The translations under genes were made by a program, and so were the position numbers. A stretch of 64,000 nucleotides of DNA from Thermoproteota archaeon (lineage in GTDB: Archaea > Asgardarchaeota > Jordiarchaeia > Jordiarchaeales > Freyrarchaeaceae), in NCBI GenBank assembly GCA_029258835.1, contig JAPDJY010000035.1, positions 64,001 to 128,000 of the forward strand, in the 5' to 3' direction. The notes beneath the pieces were generated by a model. The model was given only the letters and a program-made list of their open reading frames with translations, searched no databases and was not told the origin of the DNA. This document shows, piece after piece, positions 34,968 to 39,004 of the stretch. How positions within the stretch are numbered: position 1 is the stretch's first letter; each line of letters opens with the position of its first letter.

Positions 34968-36494
34968 TTACACGGAAGAAAGCGCGACTTTCAGTACTTT
35001 TTCCATTTCGCTTAGTTCTAAGTCGAAGGAGTAAAAACGCTCCATCAAAGCAAAGACATCGTCTGGGGGTTCTCCTTCCCTCTTAGCCCAGAGCGTTTTC
35101 CCCGCAGTTGAACGCATTACCTCCCCATTTTTGACTATAATTTCCCCGCCTTTTATAGTGTATGCTGTTTTGGATAGGGCTTTAACCAGGGCCTCATAGT
35201 CTTTACTTGGATCCGTACTCTCTGGGTTGAAGTCATACACTGCCACATCTGCTTCCGCGCCACGTGAGAGGTTTCCTTTCCCATTTAACCCTAAGGCCGC
35301 GGCTGGACTACACCTAGTTACCATGAACAATTCTTGTAAGGTGAGCTCTTGGTCTAACTGTGAGAGTTGCCCGTTCTTATCCATTTTTTCTCTTGCTTTT
35401 TTACTTACAAGCCACGCTGCTACAAGGGGGTAATCTGATGCTAACCCACAGTTTGGATGATTCACTGTTAATTGCACTTTTGAGAGATCTTTCACGTTGA
35501 GAAGTAGTTTAAGTCCTACTGCCCAAAGCTCACCCAGTTTTTCTCCTACTTTAATTAGGGTTGAAACGCCCTCTATTTCGATTTGATCCAGAAAACTTAG
35601 TCTTCCAAGATGAGCGTAGGCGAGATACGGGTCAGAAGACGTCATGATTTTTCCTGTTAACGTAGTCTGCCCTATCTCGGCCTCTATGTTCGAAGCTGAA
35701 TTTATGTACTTGGCGAGTTCCTCAGCTTTTTCTTCTTCCTCTCCGAACGTGTAGAGCTGTGCATGCGCCAAGTGTACTTTTCCAACTTCCCTTAACTTTT
35801 CTAACGTTCTAACTGCTTTTTCGTATCCTCCCTTCTGTAAGGCGCCATCTGGATGGATGTGGAGAGGGGACGGTAGGTTAAGGATTTGCGAGGCTTTCAA
35901 AATGAACTCGGCATATTCCAAGGGACTTACTCCTAAATGTCTTATTTTTTCTTCCATTCCTTTCCACTCTCTTTTCCATGTCCAAGCCTCGGCGCTCAGC
36001 GGATTAACAAGTTTAATTCCATACGTTTTTGTTGTTCTTAGAAGCCATGCTATAGTGTCAGCGGCGGCTTTAACGTCTCCCTGCTGGGCGAGCGTTAACA
36101 GAAACCAGTTGGAGTCGAGGAGGAGTAGGCATGCTTTATCTAGTGAGTGGGCTTCTTGAAGCCAAAGGTGTGTGTGGAGAGCTCTTGAAAAGAATGTCCC
36201 GGACTCCACTATGAAGGTGTAACCATTCTTGAGGTATACTTCACCTGTTTCTCTTGGAAGAGGTACTTTTAAATTGATCATTTTAGCGAAACTTAACGTT
36301 TGCGCCGCTAAGTGGGTGTGGCAGTCTATCCCTCCAGGAACGACCATTTTCCCCTTTACATCTAAAACCTTGCTTTCCCTTTCGTCCACTTGATCCACGA
36401 TGAAGCCGTCCTTAATCATAATATCCATTTTTTCTCCTTCTATTCCGTTAAGCGGGTCAAAAACGAACCCGTTCTTCAATATTATTCCGCTCAT
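34968..36494 (-). CDS. fwdA: Formylmethanofuran dehydrogenase subunit A-like amidohydrolase (divergent)
   Basis: NGFVFDPLNGI, PGGIDCHTH, GYT, YGIKLVNP, LHIH, NHPN, GAEADVAVY and YTIKGGEIIV motifs. Confidence 0.85.
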   Translation of the reverse strand: MSGIILKNGFVFDPLNGIEGEKMDIMIKDGFIVDQVDERESKVLDVKGKMVVPGGIDCHTHLAAQTLSFAKMINLKVPLPRETGEVYLKNGYTFIVESGTFFSRALHTHLWLQEAHSLDKACLLLLDSNWFLLTLAQQGDVKAAADTIAWLLRTTKTYGIKLVNPLSAEAWTWKREWKGMEEKIRHLGVSPLEYAEFILKASQILNLPSPLHIHPDGALQKGGYEKAVRTLEKLREVGKVHLAHAQLYTFGEEEEKAEELAKYINSASNIEAEIGQTTLTGKIMTSSDPYLAYAHLGRLSFLDQIEIEGVSTLIKVGEKLGELWAVGLKLLLNVKDLSKVQLTVNHPNCGLASDYPLVAAWLVSKKAREKMDKNGQLSQLDQELTLQELFMVTRCSPAAALGLNGKGNLSRGAEADVAVYDFNPESTDPSKDYEALVKALSKTAYTIKGGEIIVKNGEVMRSTAGKTLWAKREGEPPDDVFALMERFYSFDLELSEMEKVLKVALSSV

Positions 36495-36913
36495 TCTCTA
36501 TTCCCTTCTACCTCTTCAATCATTTTCTTGATTTCTTCTAACGTAGTTACTTCACTACTGGTAACTTCCAACGTTGCCTTTACAAGATAGTAATGTTCTC
36601 CCCATGTAACCTGAATGTCCTTTTCGGAGATGGCATTAAACCATGGACCATTCGGCATAAGTGCTAATCCAGGTTTGGTTTCATCGCTTTCATATGCCTT
36701 AACTACAACGTTCCCATGATCGGTTGTGACCTTAACCTTATCCCCATTTTTCACTCCATTCTTTCCCATGTCTTCCTTGCTTAGAAGGATAACTGCCGTG
36801 GTTTCAACATATCCTTCCATGCCTTTCTCTGCTTTCTCGATCGATTGCTCGACAGAGCGAACTCCACAAATGGTGACCTCAAATTTAGGAGCTAAAAGCC
36901 TGAGTAGCGACAT
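36491..36913 (-). CDS. fwdD: Formylmethanofuran dehydrogenase subunit D-like
   Basis: Molybdopterin dinucleotide-binding domain (GDKVKVTTDHGNVVV, MPNGPWFN); first gene of the fwd cluster. Confidence 0.85.
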   Translation of the reverse strand: MSLLRLLAPKFEVTICGVRSVEQSIEKAEKGMEGYVETTAVILLSKEDMGKNGVKNGDKVKVTTDHGNVVVKAYESDETKPGLALMPNGPWFNAISEKDIQVTWGEHYYLVKATLEVTSSEVTTLEEIKKMIEEVEGNRE

Positions 36914-37027
36914 TCTAAGACGCTCCTTTCATTCAGGCTATTTTAGGCAAGCTTAAAATAAAACTTTTACCGCTTTTAATCCTCGATAGTTAAAAGGGCC
37001 ATAATGTTTGCTGGAGGCGGGAGCATT

Positions 37028-37882
37028 GTGAAGGGATGGCTATTCGAAATCTTCTCCTCCTACCAATCCTTACTAAAATAAGGGGTGAAGGGGAGGGTGG
37101 AAGCGTAAAGGGGTCAAATTACGGGAAGCGGACGATATAGGCCATCCGAGGGGCCGTCGACTTATCCGCTTCTCGGGGTGTAACATATGGTTAGGAGAGT
37201 TTGGTAGGCGAGGGTGTGGGTGGTGCGACACCTTAAACGGCGCCAGACGCCCCACGCCGCTCAGCCTAAATCTGAATATTTGAAGATATCAACAGTTGAA
37301 GAAGGCATGTTTCAAGTGAAAAATCCCGTGGAGCCAGGACTAGTTGTAGAATACGTTAAACGTGTCCACTCACCAGATGTTCACGCGATTTCCCTGACAG
37401 GAGGGGAACCATTATTTCAACTAGAGTTCCTCGCTTCAATAATGAAAGCCCTTAAAGGGGAAGGATACAAAACATACTTGGAAACCAACGGTTCAATGCC
37501 GGAACGAATGGATAAAATAGCATTCTTAACAGACTATTGTTGCTGTGATATTAAAGATGAAACGGCAGGTGCAGCAGAAAACTGGAGACGGCTCGTTGAG
37601 CTGGAGCTAAAAACAATAAGTATACTTATAGATAATGGTGTCAGCGTCTTCGCTAAGGTTGTCGTTACTTCGGAGACGAAGCCTGAAAACGTTGAATGGT
37701 ATGCATCAAAGCTTTCAAGGATGGACTGCCCGCTATGTATTCAACCGGTAACGCCTATAAGGAATTATAGGCCGCCTTCACAACGCCAACTCTTCAGCTT
37801 CACGGAGGCGGCAGCAAAACATCTTGGGAGCGATAATGTGGCCATATCTGTTCAAGTACACAAGTTTTTGGGTATACCTTAA
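37028..37882 (+). CDS. queE: 7-carboxy-7-deazaguanine synthase, split into 4 exons: join(37028..37066,37090..37138,37162..37229,37247..37882)
   Basis: Joined exons give 792 nt and 263 aa: MKGWLFEIFSSYQGEGGSVKGSNYGKRTIFIRFSGCNIWLGEFGRRGCGWCDTPHAAQPK...SLTGGEPL..YLETNG..DIK..QPV..QVHKFLGIP. Clustered with DUF366 and queD. Confidence 0.9.
37067..37089 (+). other. BHB mRNA micro-intron 1 of queE (23 nt)
   Basis: TCCTTACTAAAATAAGGGGTGAA. Central helix UACC/GGUG, bulges AA^U and AA^G, intron stem CCUUA/UAAGG. Contains in-frame TAA; removal restores Q|GEG. Confidence 0.88.
37139..37161 (+). other. BHB mRNA micro-intron 2 of queE (23 nt)
   Basis: AGGCCATCCGAGGGGCCGTCGAC. Central helix CGAU/GUCG, bulges AU^A and AC^U, intron stem GGCC/GGCC, exon stem GAAGCGGA/UCCGCUUC. 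Removal restores TIFIRFSGCN. Confidence 0.86.
37230..37246 (+). other. Relaxed-BHB mRNA micro-intron 3 of queE (17 nt)
   Basis: ACCTTAAACGGCGCCAG. Central helix UGCG/CGCC (3 of 4 pairs), bulges AC^A and AG^A, intron stem CC/GG, exon stem GGUGUGGG/CCCACGCC. Removal restores CGWCD|TP. Confidence 0.78.
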
Positions 37883-37896
37883 GGGGAGGCACCCAC

Positions 37897-38532
37897 TTGA
37901 ACTTGAAAAACTTGGAAGTAGTGGAACAGGCTCCTTTAACTGTGGCATTAGTTCCCTTTACTCATCATTTTCCATATACCGGAAGGGAAATAGCGCCGCT
38001 GTGGGCTCTGAAGACATTCGGCATACAGGGGGATTCCATAATCGTTTTCCGTGGTCCCCTTAGCGTTTTAGAGTCCGAACTCGTAGACGTGAAAGACCTT
38101 GTCTTTGAAGGAGGAAAAGGACGCCCTGTTATTTCGTCTAAGGATGCCATAAGCTTTATCATAGAACATTTTGATCAGCAACCACCATCTCTACGGCTAA
38201 TGTATCATAGACTTAGGATCATAGCGTTCCTTTTTAAGGAGCTTGCCGAGGAAAAATGCGGCTTAAGGCTTCAACGTGACGGTACAGACACATACTTTAA
38301 TGGAGGAAAACTTAACGTTGGGGTGGCAACAGTTTCCTCGGGATCCGGAAAAATCCATTTTGCAATAAACATTTCCGTTGAGGGAGCGCCTCCCGGAATC
38401 AAAGTAGCAAGCCTCCTAGACTTAGGCGTTAGCGAAGGTGAAGTCGAGTCGTTTGCTGTTTCCCTCGCTAAACGTTACAGGCGTGAGATACTAGACGTTG
38501 AGAGTGACGTTGCGAAATCTAAAACCTTCTAA
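37897..38532 (+). CDS. DUF366 family protein (que-cluster associated)
   Basis: YTGREIAPLWA, GDSIIVFRGP, FIIEHFD, RDGTD, KLNVGVAT and KIHFAINI motifs. Confidence 0.85.
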   Translation: MNLKNLEVVEQAPLTVALVPFTHHFPYTGREIAPLWALKTFGIQGDSIIVFRGPLSVLESELVDVKDLVFEGGKGRPVISSKDAISFIIEHFDQQPPSLRLMYHRLRIIAFLFKELAEEKCGLRLQRDGTDTYFNGGKLNVGVATVSSGSGKIHFAINISVEGAPPGIKVASLLDLGVSEGEVESFAVSLAKRYRREILDVESDVAKSKTF

Positions 38533-38542
38533 GGGTGATAAG

Positions 38543-39004
38543 TTGCCCTACAGGCTTACGGTTGAAAGAGCAGACTTAACGTTTTCAGCTGCCCATTTCC
38601 TCCTCAAACATGAGAAGTGTGCCCGTTTACACGGTCATAACTATAAGGTTAGGGTGGAAGTTGCTTCCGACCTTTTAGATGGAAAACACATGGTGATCGA
38701 CTTCTTTTCCATAAGAGAGCTGGCTAGAAAGGCGTGCGAACCGTTGGATCATCGCGTTTTAATACCAGCTAAGTCTAATGAAATCTCGATTAAAGAATGT
38801 GAAAACGAGGTTGAAGTTGTTCTCACCGACCGGAGGTACGTTTTCCCCAGAAGCGATGTAGCGTTACTACCTTTAGAAGCCACAACTGTAGAAAAAATTG
38901 CTGAATATCTCTATGCGAAGATTAGGGAGAAGCTCCCGGAAGGTTTTAATCTTAAGGTCTCAGTAGAGGAAGCTGAAGGAGCTATAGCAACGTTTGAACT
39001 ATAA
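38543..39004 (+). CDS. queD: 6-carboxy-5,6,7,8-tetrahydropterin synthase
   Basis: FSAAHF, CARLHGHNY, VIDF, LDHRVL and TTVE motifs; start set at TTG 38543 after GGGTGA. Confidence 0.92.
   Translation: MPYRLTVERADLTFSAAHFLLKHEKCARLHGHNYKVRVEVASDLLDGKHMVIDFFSIRELARKACEPLDHRVLIPAKSNEISIKECENEVEVVLTDRRYVFPRSDVALLPLEATTVEKIAEYLYAKIREKLPEGFNLKVSVEEAEGAIATFEL

What the first reader, a model, noticed from the sequence alone, without database searches (positions are those of the whole stretch)
37055..37097. queE intron 1: canonical BHB splitting the QGEG motif
UACC (37061-64) pairs with GGUG (37084-87). The bulges are AAU (37065-67) and AAG (37088-90), and the intron stem CCUUA/UAAGG closes a 6-nt loop. 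The intron is AU-rich relative to its flanks and carries an in-frame UAA at 37079-81, so unspliced mRNA stops after 17 codons.
Basis: seen in the sequence. Interest (0 to 1): 0.8.

Follow-up and report, generated by a model that had tools for sequence, protein, structure and literature searches.

The report
tRNA-type mini-intron in Asgard queE
A 23-base insert breaks the queE-like gene of an uncultured Asgard (Jordarchaeia) archaeon, has the shape cut by the tRNA-splicing enzyme, and sits at the same spot with compensating mutations in every related genome, so the mRNA is very probably spliced, which the papers I could search report for only one archaeal coding sequence (cbf5).

Summary
Observation confirmed and interpretation supported, by sequence comparison only.

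- **Structure.** Window 37067-37089 is a 23-nt insert between the Q and GEG codons of a QueE-like radical-SAM gene. It folds as a bulge-helix-bulge: central helix UACC/GGUG, bulges AAU and AAG, inner stem CCUUA/UAAGG, and an outer helix 37055-60 / 37091,37093-97 with G37092 bulged.
- **Splice product.** Cutting after the second base of each bulge joins CAA|GGG and restores ...FSSYQGEGGS..., which aligns without gaps to intron-free homologues.
- **Conservation.** All 11 species of the class, plus extra metagenome contigs, carry an insert at this codon boundary. Lengths run from 19 to 26 nt and cover all three classes mod 3. All five inner-stem pairs show compensatory changes, and 98.8% of cells are paired.
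- **Selection.** Exons 1-3 give dN/dS of 0.06-0.22.
- **Other introns.** Two more mini-introns follow at 37139-37161 and 37230-37246.
- **Machinery.** The genome encodes two EndA paralogues and RtcB, and has no second queE.
- **Caveat.** The BHB pattern alone is not rarer than chance in this window. The weight comes from its position, the restored frame and the covariation.

This scan had already noted the same kind of intron in other genes of this genome.

The parts
37004..37066 (+). queE exon 1 (MFAGGGSIVKGWLFEIFSSYQ). The start may instead be GTG 37028, as in relatives.
   Evidence: ORF list; alignment to relatives and intron-free homologues
37055..37060 (+). 5' strand of the outer (exon-exon) helix, UCCUCC
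   Evidence: Consensus fold; pair counts 97% paired, with one covarying pair at synonymous sites 37057/37095
37061..37064 (+). Central 4-bp helix, exon strand UACC
   Evidence: Paired in 11 of 11 species, U-A or U-G at the first pair
37065..37067 (+). 5' bulge AA|U; predicted cut after 37066
   Evidence: Sequence; the BHB cutting rule was checked against the restored protein
37067..37089 (+). Intron 1, 23 nt: inner stem 37068-72/37079-83, loop 37073-78, in-frame UAA 37079-81, central-helix strand GGUG 37084-87
   Evidence: Homologous inserts of 19-26 nt in all relatives
37088..37090 (+). 3' bulge AA|G; predicted cut after 37089
37091..37097 (+). 3' strand of the outer helix: G37091 and GAGGG 37093-97, with G37092 bulged
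37090..37138 (+). queE exon 2, 49 nt (GEGGSVKGSNYGKRTI plus the first base of a Phe codon)
37139..37161 (+). Intron 2, 23 nt: central helix CGAU/GUCG, inner stem GGCC/GGCC. It splits a Phe codon T|TT and gives TIFIRF.
   Evidence: Inserts of 18-30 nt in relatives.
37162..37229 (+). queE exon 3, 68 nt, carrying the three cluster cysteines (CX11CX2C)
37230..37246 (+). Intron 3, 17 nt, relaxed BHB or bulge-helix-loop: central helix UGCG/CGCC is 3 of 4 paired, and the junction is ambiguous by 2 nt
   Evidence: Inserts of 15-32 nt in relatives.
37247..37882 (+). queE exon 4, the radical-SAM core up to the stop
   Evidence: Pfam Radical_SAM; alignment
37897..38532 (+). DUF366 gene, downstream neighbour (context)
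   Evidence: Pfam PF04017, E 2.6e-51
38498..39004 (+). queD-like gene (6-pyruvoyl tetrahydropterin synthase family), downstream neighbour (context)
   Evidence: Pfam PF01242, E 3e-24

Best explanation
37067-37089 is a bulge-helix-bulge (tRNA-type) intron inside the coding sequence of a QueE-like radical-SAM gene (probable 7-carboxy-7-deazaguanine synthase, preQ0/archaeosine pathway) of a Jordarchaeia (Asgard) archaeon.

Proposed mechanism, inferred rather than shown:
- In the pre-mRNA, exon bases 37055-64 pair with 37084-97 and the intron forms a 5-bp hairpin. [quoted passage not shown]
- The splicing endonuclease EndA cuts after the second base of each bulge (37066|37067 and 37089|37090).
- RtcB joins the exons to give CAA|GGG, that is ...SSYQGEGG....
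- The 23-nt intron is released, probably as a circle.

Two further mini-introns (37139-61, 37230-46) must be removed in the same way to give a 263-271 aa protein. Unspliced mRNA ends at UAA 37079.

Shown here: the structure, the exact restoration of frame and motif, conservation with covariation across the class, purifying selection on the exons, and the presence of the enzymes.
For: 1. **Geometry.** The window has a 4/4 central helix, two 3-nt bulges, a 5-bp inner stem and a 6-bp outer helix.
2. **Splice product.** The BHB cutting rule, with no free parameter, gives a protein that aligns without gaps to intron-free homologues at all three junctions: QGEG, QIF(I/V)RF and WCD(S/T)P.
3. **Distribution.** All 11 species of the class have an insert at the same codon boundary. 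Two further metagenome variants have it, and two independent assemblies are identical to the window. At least 26 homologues from other lineages are uninterrupted.
4. **Lengths.** Intron 1 lengths are 19, 20, 21, 22, 23, 24, 25 and 26 nt, so all three frame classes occur, yet the spliced frame is always restored.
5. **Covariation.** All 5 inner pairs carry double changes and are 100% paired. The central helix is 100% paired. The whole structure has 98.8% of cells paired, against at most 67.5% when the partners are slid, and 0 of 500 shuffles reach the observed score. RNAalifold finds the same inner stem, three of the four central-helix pairs and the same outer-helix register on its own; it pairs U37061 with G37090 instead of with G37087, which shifts its 3' bulge by one base.
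6. **Selection.** dN/dS of exons 1-3 in the spliced frame is 0.06-0.22, with synonymous sites near saturation between the two families.
7. **Machinery and need.** There are two EndA paralogues. One is 190 aa and most similar to chain B of PDB entries 3p1z and 3ajv (E about 1e-45). RtcB scores 607 bits. No second queE was found and queC is present.
8. **Lineage.** Published work reports the heaviest known tRNA BHB-intron load in this class (PMC11291895; bioRxiv 10.64898/2026.10.13.758758).
Against:
- The BHB shape alone is as frequent as in shuffled sequence.
- The single-sequence MFE has z of only -1.78 and puts the outer helix in another register.
- The outer helix is made of conserved coding sequence (FSS / GEGG), so most of its conservation could come from the protein. 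It also has a one-base irregularity.
- In one species (G007, and contig L039) the 24-nt insert is in frame with no stop, so read-through cannot be excluded there.
- Translation coupled to transcription would compete with splicing.
Confidence: 0.9

Rival explanations
1. Translational recoding: the ribosome bypasses the insert (as in T4 gene 60 or the mitochondrial 'byp' elements), or it frameshifts across it. The mRNA is never cut.
For: The insert is a short hairpin with an in-frame stop, which superficially resembles bypass elements. Intron 3 of the window contains C UUA AAC, a near-slippery heptamer.
Against: - There is no matching take-off and landing codon: CAA or CAG before the insert, and GAA, AAA or AAG before exon 2.
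- Intron 2 splits a Phe codon (T|TT). Only excision reproduces the conserved QIF(I/V)RF; a landing-codon reading gives RRL instead.
- Lengths cover all three classes mod 3, so no single frameshift rule works.
- What is conserved is the exact EndA geometry (3-nt bulges, 4-bp helix), which bypassing does not need.
Confidence: 0.04
2. Decaying pseudogene: queE is dead and the inserts are indel debris.
For: Gene callers would see only a 222-aa C-terminal ORF, with frameshifts and stops upstream.
Against: - The same three interruptions occur at the same positions in 11 species of two families.
- dN/dS is 0.06-0.22 on the small exons.
- The cluster cysteines and the QGEG motif are intact after splicing.
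- This is the only queE-like gene in the genome, next to intact queD and DUF366 genes, and queC is present.
Confidence: 0.02
3. Assembly or sequencing artefact in this MAG.
For: The genome is a 91-contig draft with 6% estimated contamination.
Against: Two other metagenome assemblies contain the identical sequence (L029, L030). Every relative has a homologous insert.
Confidence: 0.005
4. The intron is real, but splicing is conditional: a regulatory gate that ties preQ0/archaeosine synthesis to the capacity of the tRNA-splicing machinery. This is a refinement of the best explanation, not an alternative to excision.
For: There are three introns in one tRNA-modification gene, all inside conserved motifs, and they have been kept since before the two families split. 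Covarying synonymous sites in the exon helix suggest selection for the structure.
Against: - Earlier notes of this scan report the same kind of intron in many unrelated genes of this genome, which suggests a general property of the genome rather than a queE-specific device (not tested by me).
- The '3n+2 with stop' pattern of the window is not conserved. Some relatives have in-frame, stop-free inserts.
Confidence: 0.1

Closest known systems
BHB intron in the cbf5 pre-mRNA of Crenarchaeota (Watanabe 2002; Yoshinari 2006; Yokobori 2009, PMC2738675)
   Same: A short bulge-helix-bulge intron inside a protein-coding sequence. It is removed by the tRNA-splicing endonuclease of the hetero-oligomeric type and is conserved across a clade, with gains and losses.
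   Different: Here the gene is a metabolic and tRNA-modification gene and the phylum is Asgard. There are three introns within 250 nt, leaving micro-exons of 49 and 68 nt, whereas cbf5 has one. Splicing has been shown experimentally for cbf5 but not here.
BHB introns of tRNA genes in Freyrarchaeaceae, Jordiarchaeaceae and Atabeyarchaeia (PMC11291895; bioRxiv 10.64898/2026.10.13.758758)
   Same: Same lineage, same motif, same presumed enzymes, similar short lengths, and several introns per gene.
   Different: Those papers describe tRNA genes only. Neither mentions introns in protein-coding genes.
BHB intron in the 5' UTR of HVO_1309 mRNA, Haloferax volcanii (PMC7714728)
   Same: An mRNA that is a substrate of the archaeal splicing endonuclease.
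   Different: It lies in the untranslated leader, so it does not interrupt a reading frame.
HAC1/XBP1 unconventional mRNA splicing in eukaryotes (from my own knowledge)
   Same: Non-spliceosomal cut-and-ligate splicing of a short frame-changing mRNA intron at paired stem-loops. In animals the ligase is RtcB.
   Different: The endonuclease there is IRE1, not EndA/TSEN. That system is a stress switch, and no such role is shown here.
Translational bypass elements (T4 gene 60; yeast mitochondrial byps; from my own knowledge)
   Same: Short hairpin-forming inserts, with stops, inside coding sequence.
   Different: Those need matching take-off and landing codons and no RNA cutting. Neither requirement fits here.

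Membership tests
Archaeal BHB intron (EndA substrate) | [quoted passage not shown] | tested here: met
   UACC/GGUG, with bulges AAU and AAG, in the window. The central helix is 4/4 paired in 11 of 11 species.
Archaeal BHB intron (EndA substrate) | Flanking helices on both sides (hBHBh') | tested here: met
   The inner stem is 5-7 bp in all species, with 5 of 5 pairs covarying. The outer helix is 6 bp with one bulged base and 97% of cells paired.
Archaeal BHB intron (EndA substrate) | Cuts after the second bulge base on each strand yield a functional joined product | tested here: met
   The joined sequence restores the frame and the QGEG motif in all 11 species, although lengths range from 20 to 26 nt. 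This is in silico only.
Archaeal BHB intron (EndA substrate) | The host encodes the splicing endonuclease and the RtcB ligase | tested here: met
   Two proteins carry PF01974 + PF02778 (190 and 308 aa). RtcB scores 606.9 bits.
Archaeal BHB intron (EndA substrate) | Excision and exon ligation observed in RNA | not testable with these tools
QueE (7-carboxy-7-deazaguanine synthase) | Score above the curated cut-off of an NCBIfam QueE equivalog | tested here: not met
   The best scores of the two intron-free homologues tested, L012 and L027, are 49-51 bits, against cut-offs of 200-300. Exon 4 alone scores 24-32 bits. I therefore call the gene QueE-like.
QueE (7-carboxy-7-deazaguanine synthase) | Closest solved structures are QueE, including the N-terminal signature region | tested here: met
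   A profile of 8 intron-free homologues has QueE structures as its top three hits: 4njg (E 3.6e-11, profile positions 10-59), 6nhl and 5tgs.
QueE (7-carboxy-7-deazaguanine synthase) | Three-cysteine radical-SAM cluster motif and the QGEG motif | tested here: met
   CX11CX2C lies in exon 3, and QGEG is rebuilt across intron 1.
QueE (7-carboxy-7-deazaguanine synthase) | Pathway context (queD, queC) | tested here: met
   A PTPS/queD-like gene lies about 600 nt downstream of the queE stop. QueC is on contig C4. No other queE-like gene was found.
Programmed translational bypass element | Matching take-off and landing codons flank the insert | tested here: not met
   CAA or CAG lies before the insert, and GAA, AAA or AAG lies before exon 2. 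Intron 2 splits a codon.

The most novel reading that the evidence does not exclude
queE is one instance of routine, obligatory EndA/RtcB splicing of messenger RNAs in Jordarchaeia. In this Asgard lineage, ordinary protein genes are split by several tRNA-type micro-introns that have been kept since before its two families diverged, and exon codons are under selection to maintain the splice helices (covarying synonymous sites 37057/37095). If so, current gene calls and metabolic reconstructions for these archaea are systematically wrong, and a prokaryote has a eukaryote-like dependence on mRNA splicing through a different machinery.
Probability: 0.7. Interest if true: 0.88.

Novelty: new member of a known kind. 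Interest (0 to 1): 0.78.

Why it matters
In the papers I could search, endonuclease-spliced introns inside an archaeal coding sequence are reported for one gene only, cbf5 in Crenarchaeota. One further case lies in a 5' UTR, in Haloferax.

Here a metabolic and tRNA-modification gene of an Asgard archaeon, from the group closest to eukaryotes, needs three such splices to make its only QueE-like enzyme. The introns predate the split of the two families of the class.

- **Annotation.** The gene is called as a truncated 222-aa ORF that lacks its iron-sulfur site. Pathway reconstructions would therefore score preQ0/archaeosine synthesis as missing or broken.
- **Biology.** The known substrate range of the tRNA-splicing machinery would extend to ordinary mRNAs in the lineage with the heaviest known tRNA-intron load.
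- **Testability.** It gives concrete, experimentally testable substrates (23-nt introns, 49- and 68-nt exons) for asking how splicing is coordinated with translation in a cell without a nucleus.

Tried and rejected
- **Motif frequency.** I tested whether the BHB shape alone is significant. It is not: 46 hits in the window against 48.9 +/- 8.9 in shuffles.
- **Single-sequence fold.** The fold gave a different outer-helix register and a weak z-score. The alignment settled the register. The ungapped outer register I tried first is only 72.7% paired.
- **A fourth intron.** My first idea, that LGEFGRRG in exon 3 was another in-frame intron, was dropped. Intron-free homologues have the same long spacer between the cysteines.
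- **Intron 3 as a frameshift.** My first reading of intron 3 as a 2-nt frameshift or a -1 slippery site (C UUA AAC) was dropped. Relatives have unalignable inserts of 15-32 nt there, with the same central helix UGCG/CGCR.
- **Genome-wide scan.** A crude scan for BHBs that join two long open frames has low power, because gene boundaries swamp it. With at least 5 inner pairs it found 316 observed against 261 expected, and with at least 6 it found 132 against 99. This fits some tens of real cases but is not decisive. One search was a failed placeholder script.
- **Other scans.** ARAGORN and Rfam found nothing in the window.
- **Literature.** Searches for BHB introns in Asgard protein-coding genes found none.

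Full report
**What is in the sequence.**
The region 37004-37882 (+) encodes a QueE-like radical-SAM enzyme. Only the C-terminal 222 codons form a long ORF. Upstream, the conserved N-terminal motifs lie in three other frame pieces. The neighbours on the same strand are a DUF366 gene and a queD-like PTPS gene.

- UACC 37061-64 pairs with GGUG 37084-87.
- The bulges are AAU 37065-67 and AAG 37088-90.
- The inner stem is CCUUA/UAAGG, around a 6-nt loop.
- UAA 37079-81 is in the exon-1 frame.
- Intron GC is 0.35, against 0.49 and 0.55 for the flanking exons.

'17 codons' holds for a GTG 37028 start. From ATG 37004 it is 25 codons.

**Is it more than chance?**
Taken alone, no. The single-sequence fold has z = -1.78 and puts the outer helix in another register. 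A BHB of this quality occurs 46 times in the window, against 48.9 +/- 8.9 in dinucleotide shuffles. That is about 8e-6 per specified pair of positions. The weight comes from where the motif sits and from comparison with other genomes.

**Comparison.**
The genome search found the orthologue in all 10 other species of the class, which has two families. Record titles name them Candidatus Jordarchaeum, Jordarchaeales and Jordarchaeia. The two-family class with very heavy tRNA-intron load matches published Jordiarchaeia (PMC11291895).

In all 11 species the gene is interrupted at the same three places. Intron 1 always lies between the Gln codon and GGN of QGEG. Its length is 23, 22, 22, 26, 22, 25, 24, 26, 26, 20 and 21 nt, and two further metagenome variants have 19 and 20 nt. 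All three classes mod 3 occur, and the downstream frame moves accordingly. Cutting after the second base of each bulge always restores the frame.

The spliced proteins (263-306 aa; 271 aa in the window) align without a gap at any junction to intron-free homologues from other Asgard lineages. At least 26 homologues outside the class have a contiguous QGEG. Two independent metagenome assemblies contain the window's sequence unchanged, which excludes an assembly artefact.

**Structure conservation.**
On the 11-sequence alignment A1:
- The inner stem is 100% paired, and all five pairs show changes on both sides.
- The central helix is 100% paired (U-A or U-G, then A-U, C-G, C-G).
- The ungapped outer register is only 72.7% paired.

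RNAalifold proposed an outer helix with one bulged base. With that register the whole BHB has 98.8% of cells paired, against at most 67.5% for slid partners, and 0 of 500 shuffles reach the observed score.

In the window this helix is U55-G97, C56-G96, C57-G95, U58-A94 and C59-G93, then G92 bulged, then C60-G91. That is exactly the span of the finding. One outer pair (37057/37095) covaries (C-G in 4 species, U-A in 5), and both sites are synonymous third positions (Ser TCY, Glu GAR).

**Selection and need.**
Read in the spliced frame, exons 1-3 give dN/dS of 0.06-0.22, with synonymous sites near saturation between the families. This excludes a pseudogene.

The gene is the only QueE-like one in the genome, and queC is present. 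It does not reach the NCBIfam QueE cut-offs. However, a profile of intron-free homologues hits QueE structures first: 4njg at E 3.6e-11, over the very N-terminal region that the small exons encode. I call the gene QueE-like.

**The other two introns.**
- **Intron 2 (37139-37161, 23 nt).** It has central helix CGAU/GUCG, inner stem GGCC/GGCC and a long outer helix. The BHB rule splits a Phe codon (T|TT) and yields TIFIRF, matching QIF(I/V)RF of the homologues. This is an independent check of the cutting rule.
- **Intron 3 (37230-37246, 17 nt).** It is relaxed: the central helix is 3 of 4 paired, the inner stem is 2 bp, and the form is bulge-helix-loop-like. Its junction is ambiguous by 2 nt. 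Relatives have 15-32 nt at this position.

The exons between the introns are 49 and 68 nt long.

**Machinery.**
The genome encodes two EndA paralogues with both Pfam endonuclease domains, 190 and 308 aa long. The first is most similar to chain B of 3p1z, 3ajv and 2zyz. From memory, those are catalytic subunits of the crenarchaeal heterotetramers, the broad-specificity type. The second is most similar to 5x89 and 1a79. RtcB is present. A two-subunit enzyme is an inference.

**Mechanism.**
The pre-mRNA folds into the BHB, EndA cuts at 37066|67 and 37089|90, and RtcB ligates the exons to give CAA|GGG. This is inferred from the known enzymology of archaeal tRNA and cbf5 introns and was not observed here. 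Because exon 1 and the intron both end in AA, three cut registers give the same mRNA.

**Rivals.**
- Translational bypass or frameshifting fails on codon matching, on the split Phe codon and on the mixed length classes.
- A pseudogene and an artefact are excluded, as shown above.
- A queE-specific regulatory gate cannot be excluded. It is weakened because the window's '3n+2 plus stop' pattern is not conserved: G007 intron 1 (24 nt), G002 intron 3 (15 nt) and G009 intron 3 (27 nt) are in frame and stop-free. Earlier notes of this scan also report similar introns in many unrelated genes of this genome (leads only, not tested by me beyond a low-power scan).

**Novelty.**
The searchable literature reports BHB introns inside an archaeal coding sequence only for cbf5 of Crenarchaeota, plus one 5' UTR case. 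The two papers on Asgard tRNA introns do not mention protein genes. Intron 1 is therefore a new member of a known kind, in a new gene and a new phylum. The three-intron, micro-exon arrangement goes beyond the known case.

The missing piece is RNA evidence.

Noticed in passing
window 37139-37161: Second mini-intron of queE (23 nt). It splits a Phe codon and carries an in-frame UAG at 37138-40. The MFE fold gives an 11-bp outer helix with a 5-nt 3' bulge. Relatives have 18-30 nt here.
   Followed up: yes
window 37230-37246: Third mini-intron (17 nt), a relaxed bulge-helix-loop form with one U-C mismatch in the central helix. Relatives have 15-32 nt. The 15-nt version in G002 (L003) is among the shortest conceivable BHB introns, and it is in frame without a stop.
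   Followed up: partly
window 37057 and 37095: Two synonymous third-codon positions (Ser TCC/TCT and Glu GAG/GAA) covary as a base pair of the exon-exon helix: C-G in 4 species, U-A in 5, unpaired in 2. This suggests that RNA structure constrains codon choice.
   Followed up: partly
L007, L003, L008 (G007, G002, G009): Some orthologous introns are a multiple of 3 in length and have no stop: intron 1 of G007 (24 nt), intron 3 of G002 (15 nt) and intron 3 of G009 (27 nt). Gene callers read straight through these. The window's '3n+2 with stop' pattern is therefore not a conserved design.
   Followed up: partly
whole window, both strands: BHB-shaped patterns (4-bp helix, two 3-nt bulges, at least 5 inner and at least 3 outer pairs, G-U allowed) are as common as in shuffled sequence: 46 against 49. 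Motif scanning alone will produce many false introns in this genome.
   Followed up: yes
L029 and L030 (metagenome contigs Ga0180301_10004011, Ga0190363_1001775): Two independent metagenome assemblies carry the queE region, including all three introns, identical to the window. They could point to samples suitable for RNA work.
   Followed up: no
window 37897-39004: The DUF366 ORF and the queD-like ORF overlap by 35 nt if queD starts at TTG 38498. The true queD start may lie further downstream.
   Followed up: no
G000:C6:39796-40056 (L022 862-1785): The second EndA paralogue is 308 aa, with both endonuclease domains in its C-terminal half and about 135 N-terminal residues that match no Pfam family.
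   Followed up: no
window 34968-36913 (- strand): Amidohydrolase (FwdA-like) and molybdopterin-binding (FwdD-like) genes lie divergently upstream of queE. Only the Pfam domains were checked.
   Followed up: no
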